A stretch of DNA of 63,742 bases, the filler included, from Stramenopiles sp. TOSAG23-2 (lineage: Eukaryota), in the NCBI GenBank assembly GCA_900128395.1. It is 22 parts of 22 records of this genome, joined end to end, with 100 filler letters (N's around TTAATTAATTAA, not from the genome) between each part and the next. Parts side by side here need not be neighbours in the genome. Positions count along the whole stretch, not along the records: positions 21,029 to 23,919 come from LT651475.1; 21 more parts are not named here. One strand, 5' to 3'. The notes under the pieces were generated by a model. That model was not told the origin of the DNA and made no database searches. It was given only the letters and a program-made list of their open reading frames with translations. Shown piece after piece: positions 13,175 through 41,065 of this stretch (position 1 is its first letter; each line of letters begins with the position of its first letter). The position numbers and the translations under genes were made by a program.

Positions 13175-14936
13175 TTACTCTCTCCTCTCTCCACTCTCTA
13201 CTTTACATTTATTACATTGGCAAACAAAACCATAATCACGCAATTTAAATTGACGTTCTTCATATGGCAAATTACAATCGATGTATGAAAATGATAATTC
13301 TTCTCCAATTTCAATTGGTCGAACTGCTTTTACATTTGCTTTTAAAGGTTCATTTGGATCATCATCCCATTCTATAACTATATTTGGATCACAGGAATGA
13401 TTCATGCAACAAATGATAGTAAAAAGTGCTGTCCCATCTAATGGTGGAAAATATGATTTTAAATCTCCGATTGATAATGTATTTGCTGCAAAATCCTCTT
13501 CTGTTCCAGGCACAGGTATGATTGGTATCAATTCTGATATATCTACTATATTACTATTATCGTTACTGTTTGTATTTCCATTATCTGTAGTAGTAGTATT
13601 AGAATCGTTACCTTCTTTACGTTCATCATCGTTTTCTGGTCCTTCAATTTGTTCGTCTTGCTCCTCACCATCTTCATGCTCCTCTCCATTCCATATTCCA
13701 TATTGTTCAATCTCCTCTAATATTGGTTCAATCGTTTCAAATATTTCAGGATCCAACATGATTTCATCCTCGTCATCAGCATCATCAACAATATTATTAT
13801 TTCCTATTACTTCGTCATTATCATTATTATTTGATCCTTCTGCCTCATCAGTATTATCATTCGATAACATTATTTCTTGTTGTTTTTGTATTAAATCTTT
13901 CACAATTGGTGATGTTTTTCGTACACCTAAGTTATTTTGTTCAAACATACCAATAATACAACCATAATATTCTATATTAAATAAAGAATCAAATATATTT
14001 TCCGTTATAATAATTGCATCTTGCTCCTTATCGTATCTCCTCTGTGTTTCCTCTTTTTCTATGTATAAAATAGCTTTCTTTAATAATGTAAAACTTTCCA
14101 ATGATAAATTATATACAGTTGTTGCTAATGTTTCTTTCTCTTTTAAATTGGAAGTATCTTCTGGCCATACTATTTCCCACCATGGTTTTGCATGGAAACG
14201 TTTATAATCATTCTTTGCAAGTTTTATTATAACATCGTTGTCATCATGACCGCTTTCCTTCATCGTACTATGATTACGATAACTAGTTTTATATTTTTGA
14301 ATAATTTGACAAATCACTTGAAAAGCTAATAAAAATATTTCATTTGTCTGAATTGCATGTATTTTAAAATGAAATAATGGATGATCTGTATCATCTATAG
14401 GCCCTGTACATTGTATCATATGTCCATTGATATTGATATCATCGTTTAAGCATTTAGTGGAACAATATATTTCCCCACAATTGCGTTTACAACATATGAT
14501 ACTAGTCTTATTCGTATCAATAAAATCTTGACGTGATATACGTTTTGCTAATAAATTCATTTGTTGTTCAATAGTTCCAACATGTTTTTTACAATAATGA
14601 CAAATAGCAACATCTTGTTTATTTTCTAAAGCTTGTAAACATACTATTGGCCTTTCCTTGTATACAATTTCATTTGCTGTTATTGGTTGTGTTGCTAATA
14701 CATATTTTCCTTTATCTGTTGTTGGTGGTTGTATTTTAAAGGATGGTAATTTACAATTTTTTTCTGGTATTGATGATGGATTATTGTTGTTGTTGTTGTT
14801 GTTGTTATTATTATTATTATTATTAATGGTTGTTGATTTACGAACATGATCATTAACATGTACACTTGTTGTATTCGTATTACGATACGATGCCAATATT
14901 TCATCGTAATATTGCATCATGTTGTTATTACCATCG
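13175..14936 (-). CDS. SET and MYND-type lysine methyltransferase (SMYD5-like)
   Basis: KGKYVLA (SET-N), CHYC...CGEIYCSTKC zinc finger, MNHSCDPN, ELSFSY and post-SET YGFVCQCNKC, with an acidic insert. The true start is probably the ATG seen at 12684 on the inverted copy. Confidence 0.85.
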
Positions 14937-20928: not shown

Positions 20929-21305
20929 NNNNNNNNNNNNNNNNNNNNNNNNNNNNNNNNNNNNNNNNNNNNTTAATTAATTAANNNNNNNNNNNNNNNN
21001 NNNNNNNNNNNNNNNNNNNNNNNNNNNNAAAAAAAAAAAAAAAAAAATTTGCCTCTTTGCACCTTTGTTGCCTTTCGTGCTTTCCAGCTTTCTTCGTCTT
21101 AGTCTGTGCCTCTCTTTTTTTATTTTTATTAATGTTAAAATTGAATGAATACAATTATTGAATGAAAGAGGAGCGAATCTATGATATTTTTCATCAATTC
21201 ATTCTTAATACATATATATATATATATTACCAAATTAATCATAGAAAGGACAATTATTACCATCTGGTGTACATATTTATATATACCAAGTATAATATAT
21301 ATATT

Positions 21306-23294
21306 ATGAAGAAGTATTTTAATTTGTTAGAGAAACAAATAATATTATCTTTTACTTTAGTGAAAATATTATTTTTCTTTGGTTTATTGTGCACTACCAT
21401 AACTTTAGCACAAACCCAGCAACAACGACAACAATCCAGTAATCTTGAGAAAGATCATGAAGAAATTGTAAAACGTTTACATGAAGCTCAAAATGTTATG
21501 TCCAAATATTATTATGAGGCATTGGGAAAGAGAACGAATGTATTTATTTGCGCACAAACTGAAGAGCAGTTACATGTTAGTCGTGTGGATGACGGCATAT
21601 GCGATTGTTGTGATGGTAGTGATGAACCGAATAAGGCTTGGTGTAAAAGTGCAACGCCATGTTTGTCATATGAAGATAAATTGAAACGATTAAAAGCATG
21701 GTTAATGAAAAAGAAAGGGACGAATATCGATGATGTAGAAGGTGCCATGTTTACAGTGAGTAATAATATCCAAACGAAGAATGATAAAAATAAGGAAGTC
21801 CAACATAATGGGATTAAAATATTGAAAAATGGTAATAGGGGCGATAAAATATTGTCCATACCATTGGGATTGATATTCACTGCAAAAATTGCAGAAGAAA
21901 GTGGTAAAGAGCAAGGGCGATTAATATCGATGTTAAGGCCATACTTAAGTAAACCATCATATGTAGCACTAGTTTTATTAAACGAAATGAATTTAGGTAC
22001 AGAAAGTAAATTTTTTCCATGGATATCAACCTTACCATTGTTTGTGAAAAATATTGTACACACAAAATCCGTAAATACATTTTTAACTGCTCAACAACCG
22101 GCGAGTTCATTGGTTATCGACATGTCCAATAATGTACAAGAAGCAGTATTTTCAGCATATAAAAGAATTCGCTTACATTTATTAGATAAGCACCCAAAAC
22201 TTTTTTCCAAATCTAAATATAGCATAGGCCGTTTTATACATGCATATACGATTGTTAATAGTCGTGCATTTTCTTTACAATTAAGTCCCCCAGCAGTTAC
22301 GAGTATGAACAACAACAACAACAACAATAATAATAAACAGAACGCAACACAAACACCAGAACCTGAAATTGGTCTAGTTCCATTTGCTGATTTTTTAAAC
22401 CATCATCATGAAGCAGTATCTCTTGATAAAGATGGCAATGCAATTGAACAATTTCAAGTTGATTTTGAAAACAATGTCATTAATTTTTATTTAGGGCAAG
22501 ATTATGCAAAAGATAATGAAATTTTTCTAAACTACGGTGCTGTATCATCCCCAGCTCCAGGGCATATAACAGACGGTGGAAGTGGTTCCAATGCACATAG
22601 CTTGCACCATTTTGGTTTTTTGAATCCAAACAACCCATTGGAAACTGTACATGTTAGTTTGGAATATGCATTACGTTACGATCAATCTAGTTGTGGTGGA
22701 GTAACAGAAACTGGAAATTTGGAAGAATGGAGAAAACAAGCATTGTTAAAAACTGATCTTGCACATGTGCATTATTTATCTTTTAAATTGGATGGTGACA
22801 TTTCAATGGATGATCGAAAAGCCTTACGACTATGGACAATATGCCCTGGACAAGCAGTGGAAATGGGCATGAAAGAAATTAGTAGCAAGATGGAGAGTGG
22901 AGAATTACTCGATGAAGCAAATGAAGTTGCAATTGATTGGATGATCATGCTATGCCTTGAACAAATTTTATTGGATCACAAAACAGGCCTCGAAGAAGAT
23001 GTAATTTTATTACAAAATGGTGCAGTTTCGCGATTAAAGCAACCAGATTATTTCAATTCGATATTATACATATCCACAGTTAAACGTATTTTACGAGCAG
23101 GTATCATAGGCGGTATGAAAAATCTATACGAAACTTATCGTCGGGCAGCTGCGAATTGGATGGAAGTTGAGGAAGGAAAAATTGCAATGGGAGCAAATAC
23201 GGAGAATGTTGATAATTATATGAAATGGATTGAAGAATTGAATGTATGGAGAAGTAAATATTTAATTTGGAAAAAACAAAATTATAAATATTGA
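21306..23294 (+). CDS. Signal peptide + PRKCSH-like Cys module + SETD3/Rubisco-LSMT-type SET methyltransferase
   Basis: Hydrophobic leader ending TLA-Q. VDDGICDCCDGSDE. SET motifs SKFFPWISTLP, VNSRAF, LVPFADFLNHH, EIFLNYG and SNAHSLHHFGF. Helical substrate-binding C-domain. Confidence 0.85.
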   Translation: MKKYFNLLEKQIILSFTLVKILFFFGLLCTTITLAQTQQQRQQSSNLEKDHEEIVKRLHEAQNVMSKYYYEALGKRTNVFICAQTEEQLHVSRVDDGICDCCDGSDEPNKAWCKSATPCLSYEDKLKRLKAWLMKKKGTNIDDVEGAMFTVSNNIQTKNDKNKEVQHNGIKILKNGNRGDKILSIPLGLIFTAKIAEESGKEQGRLISMLRPYLSKPSYVALVLLNEMNLGTESKFFPWISTLPLFVKNIVHTKSVNTFLTAQQPASSLVIDMSNNVQEAVFSAYKRIRLHLLDKHPKLFSKSKYSIGRFIHAYTIVNSRAFSLQLSPPAVTSMNNNNNNNNNKQNATQTPEPEIGLVPFADFLNHHHEAVSLDKDGNAIEQFQVDFENNVINFYLGQDYAKDNEIFLNYGAVSSPAPGHITDGGSGSNAHSLHHFGFLNPNNPLETVHVSLEYALRYDQSSCGGVTETGNLEEWRKQALLKTDLAHVHYLSFKLDGDISMDDRKALRLWTICPGQAVEMGMKEISSKMESGELLDEANEVAIDWMIMLCLEQILLDHKTGLEEDVILLQNGAVSRLKQPDYFNSILYISTVKRILRAGIIGGMKNLYETYRRAAANWMEVEEGKIAMGANTENVDNYMKWIEELNVWRSKYLIWKKQNYKY

Positions 23295-23919: not shown

Positions 23920-24019
23920 NNNNNNNNNNNNNNNNNNNNNNNNNNNNNNNNNNNNNNNNNNNNTTAATTAATTAANNNNNNNNNNNNNNNNNNNNNNNNN
24001 NNNNNNNNNNNNNNNNNNN

Positions 24020-26908
24020 TAAGAGAACAACCAGCACCTGGACCATTATTACCATCGTATCCACGTTCATCACTTCTTATAGTGCCATTCATTTCAATTT
24101 TATTCATACTTTGTAATTTAATTGTTTGAGATGTAATTGTTGATGTTGGATATATCAAAATAGTACTTGCATTTAATGATATTGTACCAGATGCACCAGT
24201 ACCACTTATATCAGCATTTTCATGTATAACAATTGTTGATGCAATATCTCCAAGGATTGAATATGCACTGATAGTCACATCGTTTTTAATTATCATATTA
24301 TGATTAATATTTAGTAAGATGGAACCTGTTTCTGATTTAAATATTGAACTTTTTTTCAACATCATGTACTGTATACGATCAATTATTTCAATAGTATTAC
24401 TTTTTGTACCTAATATTGCATTTTCTTCTACAGTAAAATGTTGAACATCTTTAATCGAAATACTTTGAATATTTTCTAAGATAGATGTTTCCAATATATT
24501 TATATTGATTCCATTATCTAAGTCACGGCCATGAAGTACAAGTATACCACCATCACTAGATGATGTGGTCTGTGAACTTAAATACAACATACAATTTATT
24601 GATGGATAGGTATTGCTAGTTTCTATAGAAATATATCCATATCCATTATTTGATCCTTTCGCCGATATGAGTGAAGTTGGATATCCAGTAAAATCAATAC
24701 ATTTTATTTTAATTTCACCAGCTGATCCTGAATTGCATGATGTTTGAGTATTTGATGTACAACCACTTGCTAATATTTTAGCATTTTCACCTAAGTAAAA
24801 ATTATCAAATGATTCCAAATAAATTTTACCATTTGCACCACCACCAGTATTTAACGTACCATTTGTAACTAAATTTAATATTGAAAATATTTCTATTACG
24901 TTACCAGTAATTATAGATAAAGGTGATAAAAGTATTTTTGTTGCATTTAAAAAAACATGTGGTGATTCTACTAATGCACTTTCTGCGACATTTACTACGT
25001 TCCCATTTAAATGTATTTCTGCATTTTTAGATTTTAGCATTGATGACGATTGCATAATAAAAAATGTTTCAAACGTGATATTCACATCTGTATCTCTAGT
25101 ACCTAATATTGCATCTTCATCTATTGTAAACATATGGATACCTTCAAAATATATTTCATTCATGTCTGATAATTTAGACGCTTTCAAAATATTGATATTT
25201 GTATTTGATACAGTAGATTTGATTGTTAAGGATCCACTTTCTGCTGGACTGTGCAACGCTGCACCATTACATTGGTTACCGTTGGTTCGTTCATTTGATA
25301 GTCCACCAGCCATTAGACCACCATTTAATTCAATAATAAAATTTATACCAACACTTGATTTTTCTATATCAATTAGTATACGTCCACCACCACCACCACC
25401 GGAACATGCCTGATAATGTTTATCAGATCCATGATTATTGTAAATATAATGTCCACCATCACCACCTTTTGCACTAAGTACTGCATTAGGTTCGCTAACC
25501 AATGTCGCACACTTCAACCAAATACTACCACCAGCACCACCACCACCATTTCTATTATCATCGCTTGAAGACGTAAATGATTCTCCATTTGCAGTTACCA
25601 ATGATGACGGTCCTAAAACAATTTTATTGAATGATTCAACTTTTATTCTACCACCACCTTTTCCTCCAAGATAGTAAGTCCCACCGCGTTTCATAGAACC
25701 TCCACCGCTACCCATTGTAAATGCCGTATCCCTACTATGACCATATGTAATTGGATTATACGAATCAGAAGAAGAATAACATGGATTATTGACATTATCA
25801 CTATATTGCCTATCTGTATTTCCCCCTCTTCCACCATGTGATCCACCAGCACCACCTCCATACCTACTGGTGCCTGAATCACCTATAAGAGAACAACCAG
25901 CACCTGGACCATTATTACCATCGTATCCACGTTCATCACTCGTTATAGTGCCTTCAACAAATATGTTTTTTGAAATTATAGTGGTATTACGTACACTAAG
26001 TGTTCCATCAATACGTATTTCTATGGAATAAAAAATCATATACATATTGTCAGGTGCAATAGCAGTACCGCCACTTTTGACCCATAGTCGCCCTAAAACA
26101 ACAGATTTTTCAAGAACTAAAGTTTCACCAGATGCAACAATATGTGTAATATTCATATCGTCTATGTTCATTACATAAGGATAGCTTTCTCCAAAATTAT
26201 TGATAGCTGTTATGTTTATTTGCATATTTTCTACTGGGCCAATAATATCTAAAACATCTGGGATTACTGACATAAAAGTCTGGCCGGAACTTCCATCTAT
26301 CGATGTAATTACATGCACTTCATCCCATACATCACTATGTATTTTGTATGCAGTTACGGATTCACTTCTATGATTTGATGCTTGCCATGAAATACGAAGA
26401 CTACCATCAATTTGAAACACATAATGACCACTGCGTGGATGTGATGGTCTACGATCGGCAGTAATAATATTTGAATTATCTGACCAAGGACTAGTCCCAA
26501 AATTTTTCACTTTTACTCGAAAGGAGTGTATAGACCCAAAAGCTAAACCGCCCATAATGACTTCGTTACAATGCGATTCCAAAGAGACGGTTGGATCTTC
26601 CGTCGATTCAATCAAGTATAGAGATAATGGTGTTGACAAAGGAGTGTCAAATGTGATATTTGCAAAAGTTTCATAACCCCATGCGGTAACGTTCACAACG
26701 GTTTGCTCTACTACCTGTCTAATTGGACACGTTGCTAAACTTTCACGAAGGACAGAATTGGATAATGACTCGGAAATACCAAGACGACGGGTGCCACTAC
26801 GTAAATTCAAGTGAAGAACATTTGTATTTCTTCGATGTTGCGAAGGTCGCAAAACAGATTTACTTTGCAAGGTAGTGAAGTTGCATACCACTACTATTGC
26901 AAAAAAAT
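24020..26908 (-). CDS. Large surface protein: FN3-like domains + Gly-rich/beta-solenoid repeats (partial)
   Basis: GLAFGSIHSFRVKVKNFGTSPWS and LRISWQ...ITAINNFGES are FN3-like. GGSHGGRGG, GSGGG, GGKGGGRI and GGGAGGSIWL motifs. The module SDERGYDGNNGPGAGCSL occurs twice. Confidence 0.8.
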
Positions 26909-35534: not shown

Positions 35535-35966
35535 TTTATGTATATATTAAATATGTAATATATCTCGGGTCATATATAACTATTATTTTATAAATGGTAG
35601 TATAATATGTTTAATAAATATACTGTAAAGATATATTTATTATTCTAGAATTATGTATTATTAATTATGACAAAAAGTGACGTCTTTGTGCTTTCCGGCT
35701 TTATTATTCTAATTATAATAATTTAAATTATAGTTTTAAATAATAATTGTGCAATAATTATGCACTTATTGCCAGATTGTGCCTAGTGTGTGCTATTATA
35801 ATATTTTCTAGAATTGGAGGATAATGCACGAATACCACCAGCCCGGCCAGGTATTCTTAACTAATANNNNNNNNNNNNNNNNNNNNNNNNNNNNNNNNNN
35901 NNNNNNNNNNTTAATTAATTAANNNNNNNNNNNNNNNNNNNNNNNNNNNNNNNNNNNNNNNNNNNN

Positions 35967-38850
35967 CCCACCGGGCAGGTAATGCATTGTCTGTTTTCCA
36001 GATACTGGTTTGGAGGACATGCATTGGGGCAATAATCTTCTACTCTTCCTGTTGCATTTGACATGCCAGGCTCGTTCCCATACCTTCCTGCTGGGCAGGC
36101 GAGACAGGCTAAACCCATCACCGATTGACCCTTAACAGCTCCAAACCTAGCCACGAGGCAGTCTACGCAAGCGCTAGATTCAAGGCTTCTTTCAACTAAA
36201 TTGGATAATTGTTTGCCATATTTGCCTAATGAACATGGAGTTTTCAAACCGTTGCTGCAATAAAAACCATTCAGACAGACCAAACAGTCGCTTTCAGAGG
36301 TCTGACCAACGCGTGAGCCATACTTTCCAGGTTCGCATACAAATTCACAAGCATCTTCAAGGGTGGTTGTACCTGTTGCATCTCCGTACCGACCCAGCGG
36401 GCATGTGTTAAGACATCCTTCGTCTACAGAAGAAGCTCCTGTAACATTTCCATACCTTCCGCTGGGACAAATCAGCAAGCAGGAGGTTTGACCTGTGGAG
36501 GGGTTGTATTGCCCAGTAGCACAGCTTAAACACGCTTCTGACTCCAGAATTTTGCCCGCCGCGGTTCCATAAGTACCTGTTGGACAGTCGTGACAGGCAG
36601 ATACGTTCGGACCATACTTTCCTGGTTGACATCCGACAAAGCATGCGACACCTTCGTTCGGGTTGGGCTTGTTGACGCAAATAGGGTTGGTGTACCCGTT
36701 GGAGGTGCACAGGGTTGGGGTGCATGTGGTGGGGGGGATGAATTGCTCAATACCTGCTATTTGTGTAGTTTCATTGTATCCATAAAAATTGCTTGTGTTT
36801 GTCTCTTGAACAAATTTTGTATTGATTAGCGTGATACTAGGTGTGCCATCTGTCCTTTTGTATGTCATGATTTGATGTCCTTGATTATTGCTGGCATAAT
36901 TATTGATGAACAGTGATTGACGTGATATGACAATGGCATTCCACATAGCATACAGACCGGCTCCACCACTTGTCGTCGAGTGTCGAGTTACGATATTCCC
37001 TTGCAGAGTGACACGAGTTAAGTACACTGTACCTGCACCATTGCTATTACCAGCTATTCTAATACCCCCACCAAATATTCCTGCCACATTCATCCCAACA
37101 AATGTATCAGTTATATGACCTGTTGCTTGATTTAAAATTACACCACCAGGGCCATGCTCGGCTATATTATGAATAACCCTAGATTGTTTTGTAATAGCGA
37201 GATGACCTTGACTTTGATAAACCCCTGCGCCATACTTTGCTGTATTGGATTGAATGACAGAATTGTTGAATATACATTCACTTGAATCACACATAACGCC
37301 TCCACCACCCTCAACATCATCGGCGGCAACATTTCTATAAATCCAACCACCATTCACAGTCAACGAGGAACTTAGTGCATAAATCCCACCACCTGATGTG
37401 ATGACAGTATTATTAGTGACATCCGTCTCCCGCAATATAATTATTGCCCCGTTTCTACCATAAATGCTTCCACCAACGTATGCTCCATTCGTAGCAAGCG
37501 AGGAATTAATCATGACAATTCTACCAGCGCCGCTATTGACATACACAGAACCACCACCACATCCTGAACTATCATCCCAATAAGGCCACGACATATCACA
37601 AGGAGTTCCTTGACTCACATCTCCACCCGTCATATTCAACCACCTGACCGTCAAGCTATGACCATCTACGTAAAAATGCCTACTGTTCGGAGCCGCAACC
37701 AGCTTGGTGTACACCTTCTCTCTCCCCACAATGTTCAAATCGCCCGTTAACACTACCTGGCCAGACATGTAGCAATCCTCCGTTCGTTTAAATACACCTT
37801 TGGATGCGGAACAATCCCATTCTGGTTTTGTGGTTGCGCATGTGGTGGTGGAAGGCGGCAAACCATTCTCTACCGAGACAAACTGTTTGTACTCGTTTAC
37901 AGGGCAAGTGGTAGCCTCGTCGTAGTCGCACAGCACGCCTAGGTTTCCCGTACGATTGGTGCATGTTCCAGTGAAGGGAAAGATGGTGCAGGGGTTGGAG
38001 GCGCAAGTTTGGGTTCCGCAGTAGCCGTGTGTTCCATTGCAATGTAAGTAGTCGCACAGCACGCCTAGGTTTCCCGTACGGTTGGTGCATCTTCCAGTGA
38101 AGGGGAATACGGTGCAAGGGTTGGAGGCGCAGGTTTGGGGTGGGATAAACTTGTCGGGACTGCCTCCAATGTTTTCCTGGTATCCATAAAAATTGTTCGA
38201 GCTGCTGATGTGGGTAAAGTTGATGTTTACTACTGTGAGTGATGGGGTGCCCTCTGAAGTGTTGTATGTCATAATTTGATGACCATGGTTGTTGTTTGCG
38301 TAATTGTTAATGATGGATACCCTTCGTAGTATCACTATTGCGACACCTTTCAAATATAAGCCTCCGCCTGCTTCATTACCAGCAACGTTGGAGTTTAACA
38401 TCGATGATGATAAGTTTAGAAAGCCTATATTGGCATTGTCACCACTAATATAAATGCCTCCTCCGCGACTCCCTGTATTTCCTGTAATCAGCGAATATTT
38501 GATGTTTGCATACCCCCCTCCCATAACAATGCCGCCTCCATTATGTCCTATAGCTTCGTTATTCATGATATGAGTGAAACTGATTGTGACGTGGCTACCG
38601 CCTGCTAGTAAAAGCCCACCACCCTGTGCAAGTGCAGAATTCGACACAACTTTACAGGCTTCAAGTTTTAAGGTACAATCAGACAGATGGAAAGCGCCCC
38701 CATTAGCACCTCCACCTGGACCAGCGACAGCTGAATTGGCAATGAACAAAGATGATTTGGCATGTATGTCACTCGCTTTCCCATAGATGGCACCACCTCT
38801 ACAACCTCGATTTGAAGAAAATATAGACGAATCGAGCTGTGAAATGCCGC
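35967..38850 (-). CDS. Large surface protein: PMP-like (FxxN/GGAI) beta-helix repeats + Cys-rich TNFR/ephrin-like repeats (partial at both ends)
   Basis: FSSNRGCRGGAIY, GGAFHL and GGGIY motifs. Repeated CxxGxYG...CxxCPxG. Duplicated CASNPCTxFPFTGxCTNRTGNLGVLCDY. Confidence 0.85.
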
Positions 38851-39142: not shown

Positions 39143-41065
39143 ATGCCTATTTTTAAAAATACTTTGTCAAAAGCTGACCAATGTATGGCAGTTGTATTGG
39201 CGTGCGTTGTTATTGATTTAATGGGATTGTCATTGACTATTCCAATATTAGCAAATTTTGCCAGGCTTGTACAAGGAGATGCACCTGGTTGCCCACCGGC
39301 AGCACTTGATGGAATAATGAATGAGACCGTTCGTCTAACAATGCTAGCTTCTGATGAATGCCAGAAGTCCGTAAATGAAATAAAAGCAAATACTGGGGTA
39401 TTATCAACAGCATATGCAATCGCTTCGTTTATATCGACATTATGGATGCCAGTTTTTTCGGATAGATTTGGTCGTCGTTTAGCAATTCTTGTTTCGATAT
39501 TTGGGAGCCTAATTGGTTTCTTAGGGCAAGGTTTAACATGCCCAGTTGCAGAGACTGCATCTGTTCCGTGTGTAGGAATACCAGGTGGATTTTACTTTTT
39601 GGTTTTTATACGCTTTTTAGGAGGATTATTTGGAGGAACGGCAACTGTTGCATCGGCATTTGTAGTGGATCTTTATCCACAAAAAGAACGTGGAAAACAA
39701 TTTGCTAAAATTGGAATTTCTGCAATTAGTGCATTTACTTTAGGACCATCTATTGGTGGTGGTTTAGCGCAATTTGGACTACGTGTTCCATTATTTGTTG
39801 CAACTGGATTTAGCCTCCTTGCAATGGTTGCTGCATATATTTACGTACAGAATGCTGAGGATTTAGGATTAGCAGATAGAAAAAAAAACGATGATTTAGT
39901 AAAAAATGAAAAAGATGTTAATATTGTTGTTGATGGAGTTGGTGAAAAAAAGGATGAGGAAAAAATTGAGAACGAAACTTTTGTTGCATGGAAAGAAATT
40001 CGAGTATGGATTATATCGGCCCAAACAATGTTTACTACATTGTCTTTCAACGGTGTCTCTAGTTTAATGGCATTGCTTTTATTGGAGCCGAGGCTTGGAG
40101 TTGTAACAACGGAAGATTCAGTGGAAGTACAAGGTAGAAAGGTTGGTTTATGGGTTTCTGCTTTTGTGCCAGCGCTTGCTGTTTCGCAAATGGTTGTATT
40201 ACTAACGCTATATCCGCAAGTTGAGAAGAAATTTGGAATATTAACGTCAGGATTCATTGGTACTACAATCATGGCGGGTGCGTTGGTATTAATGCCTTAC
40301 TTGCCCTCTGCAGCATATTTATTTATTACACAAGTACTGTTGGCACTTGGTAATGGTCTTTCAACAAATGTATCAAGTACATATTTGTCAAAATTTGCTG
40401 GAAAAGGAAATGCGGCACAGATTTTAGCATGGGGTACCAGAGCAGATACTGTTGGTAATATACTAGGCCCATTTCTAACTTATTTCTATTTAATCGATTC
40501 CATAATACCATTTTGGTTTTGTGGTATATTTGCTATGTGTGGGTCGTTGATGAGCTTTAGTTTACTGTGCTTCAAACGACATGCGAGCCATGTCGCCGTA
40601 GATGAAAAACGTGGCGAAGAAAGAACCAGTTTGATTAAGGCACGTAAAGAACATGCAACAAAAATGAAAGAATTACGAGAGTTACACGAATCAAATCGAG
40701 AAGAAGAAGCTGTATTGTTACGAGGGAAAATACATCCAGCATTTTACAGAGGATTGTATGGGGAATATACAGAACAAATGACAATCTTATCTGAACATCT
40801 CTATCAAGAACTGAGAAAGAAAAATCATATGTATATGTTAGGATCTGGAGTTGAACAGATACGGCAAAATGCTGTCACGGCGCATAAAGATTTAATTTCT
40901 AAAGTAATTAATTCCATTCCAGCGCCAAATGCAGATACAGGTGATAAAGAATTTCTTGATGGCGTTAGTATCTTTTTATCAGAATCAGGACATGAGGAGT
41001 GGGCATTAAACATACCTGGTATGACACCAGATGCATTGATTAATTTAATGAAAATTCCACATTAA
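39143..41065 (+). CDS. MFS transporter (DHA1/TetA-like) with a long soluble C-terminal tail
   Basis: Motif A SDRFGRR, RFLGGLFGG, motif C-like LGPSIGGGL, about 12 hydrophobic segments. Confidence 0.92.
   Translation: MPIFKNTLSKADQCMAVVLACVVIDLMGLSLTIPILANFARLVQGDAPGCPPAALDGIMNETVRLTMLASDECQKSVNEIKANTGVLSTAYAIASFISTLWMPVFSDRFGRRLAILVSIFGSLIGFLGQGLTCPVAETASVPCVGIPGGFYFLVFIRFLGGLFGGTATVASAFVVDLYPQKERGKQFAKIGISAISAFTLGPSIGGGLAQFGLRVPLFVATGFSLLAMVAAYIYVQNAEDLGLADRKKNDDLVKNEKDVNIVVDGVGEKKDEEKIENETFVAWKEIRVWIISAQTMFTTLSFNGVSSLMALLLLEPRLGVVTTEDSVEVQGRKVGLWVSAFVPALAVSQMVVLLTLYPQVEKKFGILTSGFIGTTIMAGALVLMPYLPSAAYLFITQVLLALGNGLSTNVSSTYLSKFAGKGNAAQILAWGTRADTVGNILGPFLTYFYLIDSIIPFWFCGIFAMCGSLMSFSLLCFKRHASHVAVDEKRGEERTSLIKARKEHATKMKELRELHESNREEEAVLLRGKIHPAFYRGLYGEYTEQMTILSEHLYQELRKKNHMYMLGSGVEQIRQNAVTAHKDLISKVINSIPAPNADTGDKEFLDGVSIFLSESGHEEWALNIPGMTPDALINLMKIPH

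What the first reader, a model, noticed from the sequence alone, without database searches (positions are those of the whole stretch)
21306..23294. Secretory-pathway SET methyltransferase fused to a glucosidase-II-beta (PRKCSH)-like Cys module
Seen: one uninterrupted ORF with a signal-peptide-like leader, the motif VDDGICDCCDGSDE, and then a complete SETD3/LSMT-type SET with intact NH and Y motifs. Known: NDxxCDCxDGSDE is the LDLa-like module of the ER protein PRKCSH, whereas SET enzymes are normally nuclear, cytosolic or plastidial. Inference: two independent luminal signals on a SET enzyme suggest protein methylation inside the ER/secretory pathway, perhaps docked on glucosidase II alpha or its clients. 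I do not know this as a described system.
Basis: partly seen in the sequence, partly recalled or inferred. Interest (0 to 1): 0.72.

Follow-up and report, generated by a model that had tools for sequence, protein, structure and literature searches.

The report
Signal-peptide SET methyltransferase with GIIβ-type Cys module
A marine protist gene encodes a protein methyltransferase of the SETD3/LSMT type that carries a secretion leader and a calcium-binding cysteine module borrowed from an ER glycan-trimming enzyme, which suggests, but does not prove, that it methylates proteins inside the secretory pathway.

Summary
Window 21306-23294(+) is one uninterrupted 662-codon ORF. It encodes a hydrophobic leader, one six-cysteine module (SRVDDGICDCCDGSDE) whose only database relatives are glucosidase II beta subunits, and a SETD3/LSMT/SETD6-class SET enzyme with its substrate-binding C-domain.

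It is not an assembly chimera. RNA contigs from three studies bridge the module-SET junction without joints. The same architecture recurs in relatives down to about 30% identity, and these form one clade.

The SET catalytic columns (R320, D362, N365, H366, Y410) are kept. The two positions that make SETD3 histidine-specific carry Phe/Ala, the lysine-type combination.

The luminal location is inferred, not shown. All lineages keep short signal-peptide-like leaders and six invariant cysteines, but SignalP was not available, there is no KDEL/HDEL, and sequons are few.

The idea that it docks on glucosidase II alpha is untested. Only one of the two G2B modules is present, with no MRH domain.

The nearest SET-only relatives also mostly carry leaders, which hints at a wider undescribed group of secretory SET enzymes in protists. 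Three full-text literature searches found no description of such a system.

Verdict: a real gene and a new variant of a known enzyme class. Interest is moderately high, and the function is still unproven.

The parts
21306..21410 (+). Leader, residues 1-35: basic n-region, hydrophobic core ILFFFGLLC, candidate cleavage TLA|QTQ. It is signal-peptide-like.
   Evidence: This is the top hydrophobic window in the protein and in all 11 homologues examined. The uncharged core is 15 residues, with small residues at -1/-3. AF2 draws it as a helix. No SignalP run was possible.
21411..21536 (+). Gln-rich stretch followed by a conserved helix (KDHEEIVKRLHEA..MSKYYY), residues 36-77.
   Evidence: K67, Y68, Y69 and Y70 are invariant in alignment A1. 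AF2 draws residues 2-73 as one continuous helix (H2-73) that also includes the leader; per-10-residue pLDDT over residues 41-70 is 58-79.
21537..21662 (+). Single GIIbeta-type LDLa-like module, residues 78-119. Six invariant Cys (C82, C99, C101, C102, C113, C119) and the acidic motif SRVDDGICDCCDGSDEP.
   Evidence: PF12999 E 2.2e-6. PDB GIIbeta chains at about E 3e-7. The six Cys are invariant in 7 sequences. The motif is the same as the second module of canonical GIIbeta proteins. AF2 confidence here is low, pLDDT below 50.
21669..22640 (+). Split SET domain of the SETD3/LSMT/SETD6 class, residues about 122-445. It includes a variable poly-Asn loop (335-343) and a family-specific invariant insert, GHITDGGSGSNAH (419-431).
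   Evidence: Foldseek hits: SETD3 7e-18, LSMT 1e-14, SETD6 3e-13. The A2 profile against PDB gives SETD3 4e-86. Conserved columns are G169, G179, P186, R320, P359, D362, N365, H366, Y410, G411 and F438.
22398..22403 (+). NH motif (N365, H366) of the SAM/catalytic site.
   Evidence: N is kept in 12 of 15 family rows and 49 of 54 other rows. H is kept in 13 of 15 and 50 of 54. The remaining rows are gaps, apart from one P at the N365 column among the other rows. H366 is nearly invariant in A2.
22533..22535 (+). Catalytic tyrosine Y410 (EIFLNYG).
   Evidence: Y is kept in 12 of 15 family rows (the rest are gaps) and in 47 of 54 other rows. It aligns with the IFYG tyrosine of SETD3.
22269..22271 (+). 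F322, at the position of SETD3 N255 (a substrate-specificity position). Together with A361 (nt 22386-22388) at the W273 position, it gives a lysine-type pocket.
   Evidence: In one search the SETD3 mutant chains N255F/V/A and W273A align at exactly these consensus columns (SRaF, PfaD). A review passage states that N256F+W274A gives lysine methyltransferase activity (PMC8537074).
22641..23045 (+). Rubis-subs-bind-like helical substrate-binding domain, residues about 446-580. It holds the invariant C463 and C513.
   Evidence: PF09273 E 0.011, below cutoff. The fold alignments to SETD3 span 507-521 columns of 465-484-residue targets. pLDDT is mostly above 85.
23046..23294 (+). C-terminal helical extension (residues 581-662; conserved YETYRRAAA..W...YL.WK) and the stop codon. 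There is no KDEL/HDEL.
   Evidence: Alignment A1. C-terminal tails are listed. AF2 draws helices 580-661.

Best explanation
This is a real, intron-less, expressed gene of an uncultured marine protist. One 49%-identical relative cluster carries the EukProt name 'Stramenopile-MAST_4'.

The protein is made of five parts in order: a signal-peptide-like leader, a short helix, one Ca2+-type six-cysteine LDLa-like module of the kind otherwise found only in glucosidase II beta, a catalytically complete SET domain of the SETD3/LSMT/SETD6 class, and that class's helical substrate-binding domain with an extra helical tail.

Most likely mechanism, all of it inferred:
1. The leader takes the protein into the ER, where the module's three disulfides form.
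2. The SET domain uses imported S-adenosylmethionine to methylate lysine, not histidine, on one or a few luminal or secreted client proteins. These are selected by the C-terminal domain.
3. The Cys module serves as a Ca2+-dependent docking unit.

Shown here: the architecture, its transcription as one piece, its conservation as one clade, the fold class and the intact catalytic columns.

Inferred only: entry into the ER, enzymatic activity, lysine specificity, and the partner of the module.
For: One open frame of 662 codons.

Transcribed as one piece:
- An RNA contig in X9 covers 21282-22584 (1303 nt) without gaps.
- A polyA-library contig in X17 covers 21489-21795.
- An oligo-dT-library contig in X16 covers 21444-21718.
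- No joints were reported.
- 20 of 24 listed runs from 14 studies hold the stretch.

Conserved architecture:
- Homologues of 99, 72, 59 and 49% identity keep the same order of parts.
- More distant ones keep it too: the P0052 cluster at about 30% identity, and the fragments P0057 and P0068.
- The fused proteins are one clade, SH-aLRT 95.

Cys module:
- PF12999 E 2.2e-6 and PDB GIIbeta about E 3e-7.
- Six Cys are invariant.
- The motif equals the second GIIbeta module.

SET class:
- AF2 model mean pLDDT 82.4, pTM 0.79.
- Foldseek: SETD3 7e-18, LSMT 1e-14, SETD6 3e-13.
- Catalytic columns are kept.
- F322/A361 sit at the SETD3 N255/W273 positions (PMC8537074 passage).

Leader:
- The hydrophobic core is 9-16 residues in 8 of the 11 sequences examined (21 in P0052 and P0203, 33 in P0032), and all have candidate -3/-1 cleavage sites.
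- 16 of 19 rows in the tree half that holds the family carry a leader, against 4 of 23 in the other half.

Precedents for luminal methyl chemistry:
- Plant Golgi SAM transporters (bioRxiv 10.1101/2021.07.06.451061, abstract seen in the listing).
- METTL9, which has a signal peptide and N-glycans (PMC12313917, passages).
Against: No signal-peptide predictor could be run. The leader call rests on a crude hydropathy and -3/-1 rule.

In the window's own protein the hydrophobic stretch is long (residues 12-35, with one Lys), so a signal anchor is possible.

There is no KDEL/HDEL or other retention tail, and only 1-2 N-x-S/T sequons per protein.

Single-sequence Pfam scores for all three domains fall below their gathering cut-offs.

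The first AF2 run with 7 sequences failed, mean pLDDT 34. In the second run the Cys module is still below pLDDT 50, so its fold and disulfides are not modelled.

No SAM importer of the ER or Golgi is known for this organism, and its genome is not held.

[quoted passage not shown] A leader therefore does not guarantee luminal catalysis.

The branch that joins the leader-bearing relatives to the family is weak, SH-aLRT 53.
Confidence: 0.55

Rival explanations
1. Type II signal-anchored membrane protein. The hydrophobic segment is not cleaved and tethers the luminal Cys module and SET domain to an ER or Golgi membrane, like Golgi glycosyl- and methyltransferases.
For: In the window's protein the hydrophobic stretch runs from residue 12 to 35, and it is the strongest 19-residue window (KD 2.31). 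There is no soluble-protein retention signal. AF2 draws one long helix over residues 2-73.
Against: In other lineages the uncharged core is only 9-16 residues (for example P0036, P0057, P0003), with small residues at -1/-3. That fits a cleaved signal peptide better than a membrane span.
Confidence: 0.2
2. One reading: the module docks the SET enzyme on glucosidase II alpha, in place of or beside GIIbeta, so that it methylates GII or its glycoprotein clients in the ER.
For: The module's only database relatives are GIIbeta G2B modules. The G2B domain is the part of GIIbeta that holds GIIalpha (PMC3103398, passages). Binding to a retained complex would explain the missing retention tail.
Against: Only one of the two G2B modules is present. 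In S. pombe single mutations in either module region (E73A or E114A) lost the alpha interaction. There is no EF-hand region, MRH domain or HDEL. No GIIalpha of this organism was available, so nothing was tested.
Confidence: 0.1
3. A luminal or secreted non-enzymatic SET-fold protein, acting as a binding or scaffold subunit as pTAC14/PAP7 does in the plastid RNA polymerase.
For: pTAC14/PAP7 chains are among the fold and profile matches. SAM supply in the lumen is unproven.
Against: All catalytic and SAM-site columns are invariant across the family: R320, D362, N365, H366, Y410, G411, F438. This is not expected of a pseudoenzyme.
Confidence: 0.12
4. Not a secretory protein. The hydrophobic N-terminus is a mis-called start or another kind of signal, and the enzyme works in the cytosol, nucleus or an organelle, with the Cys module binding metal.
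For: An in-frame upstream ATG at 21162 would make the segment internal, and one database gene call (P0015, 706 aa) uses it. Some algal LSMT-like relatives probably carry plastid-type bipartite leaders, for example P0088 (my reading).
Against: The upstream extension comes from AT-rich low-complexity sequence and is absent from all other lineages, which start at the leader. The laid RNA contigs begin at 21234-21282, but the tool skipped a repeat at 21197-21233, so this is only weak support. The sequence after the leader is acidic and helical, not transit-peptide-like. Six invariant Cys in a Ca2+-type LDLa motif are a hallmark of oxidising compartments (established knowledge of LDLa modules).
Confidence: 0.08
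5. Assembly or amplification chimera joining a GIIbeta fragment to a SET gene.
For: None found.
Against: RNA contigs from three studies bridge 21650-21720. A 24-member 90% cluster lies on independent contigs. The same fusion occurs at 72, 59, 49 and about 30% identity.
Confidence: 0.01

Closest known systems
SETD3 (actin-histidine N-methyltransferase), Rubisco LSMT and SETD6: the SET + Rubis-subs-bind class
   Same: Same two-domain fold. Foldseek gives E 7e-18, 1e-14 and 3e-13, with TM on the target of 0.62-0.72. The SR, PxxDxxNH and YG motifs are the same. It has the Phe/Ala pocket of the lysine enzymes rather than the Asn/Trp of SETD3.
   Different: Identity is only 16-19%. It adds an N-terminal leader and Cys module, an invariant 13-residue insert after the catalytic Tyr, and an 80-residue helical tail. 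By general knowledge the known members act in cytosol, nucleus or plastid.
Glucosidase II beta subunit (PRKCSH), G2B domain
   Same: The 16-residue core SRV(D/N)DGICDCCDGSDE and the six-Cys spacing equal the second LDLa-like module of canonical GIIbeta proteins. A signal peptide lies upstream.
   Different: There is one module instead of two, and no EF-hand/coiled-coil region, MRH domain or HDEL. The Pfam score is below the gathering score.
Leader-bearing SET-only relatives from protist transcriptomes and metagenomes (P0062, P0066, P0072, P0074, P0075, P0085, P0089, P0095)
   Same: They are the nearest SET relatives in the tree. They have an N-terminal signal-peptide-like segment directly before the SET N-helix and carry SET + Rubis-subs-bind.
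   Different: They have no Cys module. Identity is about 20%. None has a name or described function in the sources.
METTL9 (seven-beta-strand protein histidine methyltransferase)
   Same: It is a protein methyltransferase with a predicted signal peptide that enters the ER, is N-glycosylated, and lacks KDEL (PMC12313917, passages).
   Different: The fold is unrelated and the target is histidine. [quoted passage not shown]

Membership tests
SETD3/LSMT/SETD6-class SET methyltransferases | Split SET fold followed by the helical Rubis-subs-bind domain | tested here: met
   The AF2 model (mean pLDDT 82.4) aligns over 507-521 columns to SETD3 chains at E about 1e-17 and TM 0.68-0.72 on the target. 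LSMT and SETD6 score 1e-14 and 3e-13.
SETD3/LSMT/SETD6-class SET methyltransferases | SAM/catalytic motifs: SR, PxxDxxNH, catalytic Tyr in xYG, and (Y/F)GF | tested here: met
   R320, P359, D362, N365, H366, Y410, G411 and F438 are present and conserved in the family and in most of 54 relatives.
SETD3/LSMT/SETD6-class SET methyltransferases | Pfam SET (PF00856) and Rubis-subs-bind (PF09273) at gathering score | tested here: not met
   Scores are 19.6 bits against 22.4, and 16.8 against 21.6. The link is made instead by the family profile (E 1e-16 to 1e-7 to proteins that pass both models) and by fold.
SETD3/LSMT/SETD6-class SET methyltransferases | SAM-dependent methyl transfer to a protein side chain | not testable with these tools
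   This needs recombinant protein and an activity assay.
SETD3 orthologues (actin His73 methyltransferase) | Asn255 and Trp273 of the histidine pocket | tested here: not met
   The window protein has F322 and A361 at these columns. The columns are fixed by the N255F/V/A and W273A mutant chains. Phe/Ala is the engineered lysine-active combination (PMC8537074).
Glucosidase II beta subunit (PRKCSH) | G2B domain with two LDLa-like modules | tested here: not met
   There is one CDCxDGSDE motif per protein in the fused family. Nine of the 10 canonical GIIbeta proteins listed have two and one (P0112) has one.
Glucosidase II beta subunit (PRKCSH) | C-terminal MRH domain (PF13015/PF07915) and an HDEL-type tail | tested here: not met
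   There are no such Pfam hits at E <= 1. The tails are KKQNYKY, WKKNV and similar.
LDL-receptor class A (LDLa) modules | Six Cys and the acidic D-x-x-x-D-x-x-D-x-x-D-E Ca2+ cage | tested here: inconclusive
   Six Cys and the DDGICDCCDGSDE acids are invariant. However, PF00057 gave no hit at E <= 1, and the model is unconfident here.
Secretory proteins with a cleavable signal peptide | n-, h- and c-regions with small residues at -1/-3 | tested here: inconclusive
   A crude rule only. The uncharged core is 9-16 residues in 8 of the 11 sequences examined (21 in P0052 and P0203, 33 in P0032), with candidate sites in all 11. No trained predictor was available.

The most novel reading that the evidence does not exclude
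This is a SET-fold protein lysine methyltransferase that works inside the secretory pathway, and the fused LDLa-like module is its substrate handle. LDLa/complement-type repeats of the LDL-receptor family grip ligand lysines in their Ca2+-acidic pocket (abstract of PMC3304490 as seen in the listing). On this reading the protein would pair a lysine-docking unit with a lysine-methylating unit in the lumen. Together with the leader-bearing SET-only relatives, this would mean that luminal lysine methylation, and therefore SAM import into the ER or Golgi, is a widespread and undescribed feature of protist secretory biology.
Probability: 0.25. Interest if true: 0.8.

Novelty: new variant of a known kind. 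Interest (0 to 1): 0.55.

Why it matters
SET-domain enzymes are textbook cytosolic, nuclear or plastid enzymes. One that is built to fold and act in the oxidising, Ca2+-rich secretory pathway would open three questions:
- which luminal or secreted proteins are lysine-methylated;
- how SAM reaches that compartment in a heterotrophic protist;
- what the glucosidase II beta module does when it is detached from its usual protein.

The gene is expressed in marine metatranscriptomes from several studies, in a group of abundant uncultured bacterivores. It is also small enough (one exon, 662 codons) to be expressed and assayed directly.

If the leader turns out not to deliver the catalytic domain to the lumen, the finding reduces to an unusual domain fusion in a narrow clade.

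Tried and rejected
- AF2 on the 7-sequence family alignment gave an unusable model, mean pLDDT 34.4. It was replaced by a 69-row alignment.
- Single-sequence phmmer of residues 151-662 against PDB found no SET chain, only chance-level hits at E >= 0.18.
- No whole genome is held for the window. The organism's own GIIalpha, GIIbeta and any SAM transporter could therefore not be sought, and complex prediction was not used.
- The ESM Atlas gave only sub-threshold leads (best 0.88) to SET/Rubis-subs-bind clusters.
- The search for homologous proteins with the leader-bearing relative P0075 returned six proteins without organism names. The listing of cluster members gave no taxonomy for the divergent fused clusters.
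- Literature: no paper held SET domain + glucosidase II beta + signal peptide + methyltransferase together. The hits for SET domain + ER lumen + lysine methyltransferase (4 papers) and for SET domain + signal peptide + secretory pathway + lysine methylation (1 paper, on bacterial effectors) were irrelevant by title and abstract.
- PMC4742823 and PMC12732852 were searched for the alpha-beta interface of glucosidase II and gave nothing usable on which module contacts alpha.
- PMC10819646 only lists PDB titles.
- Earlier findings of this scan: nothing by sequence or by words.
- In read laying, the DNA run X1 covers only parts of the stretch, and the RNA runs have uncovered bins. These holes are not evidence of anything.
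Full report
**What is there.** Window 21306-23294(+) translates without interruption to 662 residues and a stop. The window is about 30% G+C, with long intron-poor ORFs on both strands. Neighbouring ORFs hit eukaryote-type Pfam families such as AAA, carboxylesterase, ARID and MFS.

**Single-sequence evidence.**
- Pfam gives PRKCSH-like PF12999 at E 2.2e-6 (28 bits, below the gathering score of 34.9).
- SET scores E 0.0012 and Rubis-subs-bind E 0.011, both below cutoff.
- phmmer against PDB finds only glucosidase II beta chains, at E 2.8e-7 to 6.5e-5.

On one sequence alone, the Cys module is significant and the SET call is weak.

**Is the fusion real?** Yes.
- A word-indexed search of 5.8 billion proteins found six relatives with the same order of parts, at 99, 72, 71, 67, 59 and 49% identity (two of them partial, 511 and 364 aa), plus three ordinary GIIbeta proteins.
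- The window's own 90% cluster has 24 members on separate contigs.
- One member of the 49% cluster bears the EukProt name 'Stramenopile-MAST_4_protein_5704'. This is the only hint at the organism.
- In the 7-sequence alignment A1 the leader, the helix ending MSKYYY, six cysteines (C82, C99, C101, C102, C113, C119) and long stretches of the SET part are invariant.
- A profile of A1 was run over 1.84 billion representatives and gave 980 hits at E <= 1e-3 and 30 at <= 1e-10.
- Beyond the close clade, three more clusters carry both the module and the SET part: P0052 (586 aa, E 5e-51, about 30% identity), P0057 (369-aa fragment) and P0068 (176-aa fragment).
- The remaining listed hits are of two kinds. 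The SET-side hits have no module: of the 24 I scanned by Pfam, 17 hit both SET and Rubis-subs-bind, five SET alone, one Rubis-subs-bind with WW, and one nothing. The Cys-side hits are ordinary GIIbeta: three and 25 of 25.
- A protein with both parts would score high enough to be among the 150 listed, so the fusion is rare.

**Expression.**
- 20 of 24 listed public runs from 14 studies hold the stretch, and six of them are RNA libraries.
- I laid three RNA runs and one DNA run.
  - A metatranscriptome contig (X9, record 20) covers 21282-22584 without gaps. That span includes the leader, the module, the junction and two thirds of the SET domain.
  - A polyA-library contig (X17) covers 21489-21795.
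  - An oligo-dT-library contig (X16) covers 21444-21718.
  - No joints were reported, so there is no intron.
- These are contigs, so they show presence and continuity, not expression level or transcript ends.

**The start codon.** The ORF listing offers an upstream ATG at 21162. That extension is translated from AT-rich simple sequence. It is absent from all other lineages. It appears in only one database gene call, P0015. I take 21306 as the start. The transcript's 5' end is not fixed, because the laying tool skipped a repeat at 21197-21233.

**The Cys module.** I compared the module with ten canonical GIIbeta proteins returned by the searches.
- Nine of the ten show two motifs (P0112 shows only the second type):
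  - a first module of the type CDCxDGSDEPGTxAC;
  - a second of the type SR(V/I)xDG(I/V)CDCCDGSDE followed by two more Cys.
- The fused family has exactly one motif, SRV(D/N)DG(I/T)CDCCDGSDE (RVNDTI in the fragment P0068), with six Cys. This is the second type. It keeps the DEP and the upstream Y...F-x-C that resemble the first type.
- The Pfam alignment covers only 37 of the 176 positions of PF12999.
- There is no EF-hand region, no MRH domain (no PF13015 or PF07915 hit) and no HDEL.
- It is therefore a detached G2B-type LDLa-like module, not a GIIbeta homologue.

**The SET part.**
- AF2 on the shallow alignment failed, mean pLDDT 34.4.
- With a 69-row alignment (A2) the model reached mean pLDDT 82.4 and pTM 0.79. 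Low confidence was confined to residues 41-44 and 76-116.
- Foldseek against PDB gave 42 matches at E <= 1e-3:
  - the top 19 ranks are SETD3 chains, best 6v62_A at E 7.1e-18 with TM 0.72 on the target;
  - then LSMT at 1.3e-14, SETD6 at 3.3e-13 and pTAC14/PAP7 at 5e-10;
  - SMYD proteins follow only at 1e-4 with poor TM.
- The A2 profile hits SETD3 at 4e-86, LSMT at 3e-72 and SETD6 at 2e-56. That profile is dominated by the remote relatives, so it classifies them. The window's family is tied to them by the A1 profile and by fold.
- Column counts on A2 show that G169, G179, P186, R320, P359, D362, N365, H366, Y410, G411 and F438 are kept in all non-gap rows of the 15 family rows and in most of the 54 others.
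- A family-specific invariant insert, GHITDGGSGSNAH, lies between the catalytic Tyr and the (Y/F)GF motif.

**Lysine or histidine?** The PDB holds SETD3 mutants, and these fix two columns in the alignments.
- Position 255 (N in wild type; F, V or A in the mutant chains) aligns with the Phe of the consensus SRaF.
- Position 273 (W in wild type; A in 6v62) aligns with the Ala of PfaD.
- The window's protein has F322 and A361 there.
- A review states that N256F plus W274A gives SETD3 lysine methyltransferase activity on a lysine-bearing actin peptide (PMC8537074, passage read; numbering offset by one).
- The entry title of 6v62 says the same pair was crystallised with a His73Lys peptide.
- I therefore predict lysine, not histidine, as the target. 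This is an inference from two positions.

**Where does it act?** Evidence for the secretory pathway:
- **Leader.** In all 11 homologues examined the N-terminal segment is the most hydrophobic 15-residue window.
- **Core length and cleavage site.** The uncharged core is 9-16 residues in 8 of the 11, with small residues available at -1/-3. The exceptions are the two P0052-cluster sequences (21 residues) and P0032 (33), whose listed N-terminus probably includes an upstream extension.
- **Cysteines.** Six invariant Cys sit in a Ca2+-type LDLa motif. From general knowledge of such modules, this belongs to oxidising compartments.
- **Relatives.**
  - By a crude rule, 15 of 42 SET-only relatives have a leader.
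  - I built an IQ-TREE 'quick' tree of 42 of the 69 A2 rows. The 27 rows left out were fragments and near-duplicates: P0024, P0005, P0030, P0200, P0202, P0057, P0204, P0068, P0053-P0056, P0201, P0216, P0064, P0220, P0069, P0081, P0225, P0139, P0148, P0155, P0171, P0182, P0183, P0186 and P0189.
  - In that tree the fused proteins are one clade, SH-aLRT 95.
  - They sit in a half of the tree where 16 of 19 rows carry a leader, against 4 of 23 in the other half.
  - In several of these relatives the SET N-terminal helix follows the leader directly, with acidic sequence between, which does not look like a plastid transit peptide (my reading).

Evidence against, or limits:
- The uniting branch in that tree is weak, SH-aLRT 53.
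- No trained predictor was run.
- There are only 1-2 sequons and no retention signal.
- The window's own leader is long enough to be a signal anchor.
- SAM supply in the lumen is unknown here.
- Precedents exist elsewhere. Plant Golgi SAM transporters of the MFS type are described (abstract of bioRxiv 10.1101/2021.07.06.451061 in the listing). [quoted passage not shown]

**What does the module do?** This is unknown.
- In that study a single mutation in either module region was enough to lose alpha. Here only one module exists.
- I could not obtain the organism's GIIalpha, so no binding test was run.
- An alternative lead is that LDLa/complement-type repeats bind ligand lysines (abstract of PMC3304490 in the listing). 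That would make the module a lysine-directed handle beside a lysine methyltransferase. This is speculation.

**Novelty.** Three full-text searches found no description of a SET enzyme with a signal peptide and a GIIbeta module, or of a luminal SET lysine methyltransferase. These searches cover only the held open-access library. The enzyme class is well known. The leader, the module, the insert and the tail make this a new variant. The apparent wider group of leader-bearing SET-only relatives is, as far as these searches go, also undescribed.

**Verdict.** My confidence in the main points:
- real fused, expressed gene: about 0.97;
- enters the secretory pathway: about 0.8;
- the full reading (an active luminal lysine methyltransferase): 0.55.

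Noticed in passing
window 13175-14920 (-): A second, unrelated SET-domain ORF (581 aa) lies 6 kb upstream. Pfam SET scores E 1.5e-8 at residues 498-546, with no other domain found.
   Followed up: no
window 23964-26891 (-): The next ORF downstream, on the opposite strand, is a large Gly-rich repetitive protein of about 975 aa. The unit ERGYDGNNGPGAGCSL occurs at least twice. It has no Pfam family, and its 5' end runs into a masked N stretch.
   Followed up: no
window 20929-21028: Two masked N stretches and a poly-A run lie about 280-380 bases upstream of the start codon at 21306, so part of the upstream (promoter-side) region cannot be read.
   Followed up: no
window 21162-21305 (+): An in-frame upstream ATG extends the ORF by 48 codons through TA-rich simple sequence. 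One database gene call (P0015, 706 aa) includes it, but other lineages do not.
   Followed up: partly
window 36001-38000: G+C rises to 0.46 against about 0.30 elsewhere. The rise falls inside the ORF at 35915-38566(-), which has an Ephrin_rec_like Cys-rich repeat.
   Followed up: no
window 39143-41065 (+): An MFS_1/Sugar_tr transporter gene lies 16 kb away. Plant Golgi SAM transporters are MFS members (listing abstract). No link to this gene was tested, and linkage means little in a eukaryote.
   Followed up: no
proteins P0062, P0066, P0072, P0074, P0075, P0085, P0089, P0095 (not in the window): SET + Rubis-subs-bind proteins from protist transcriptomes and metagenomes carry signal-peptide-like N-termini and are the nearest tree neighbours of the fused family. 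They may form a wider group of secretory SET enzymes.
   Followed up: partly
window 22560-22598 (+), residues 419-431: The invariant family-specific insert GHITDGGSGSNAH lies between the catalytic Tyr and the (Y/F)GF motif. It is absent from SETD3, LSMT and other relatives, and its role is unknown.
   Followed up: partly
window 22692-22694 and 22842-22844 (+), residues C463 and C513: Two further invariant cysteines lie in the C-terminal domain. Whether they pair could not be checked, because model coordinates are not exposed to scripts.
   Followed up: no
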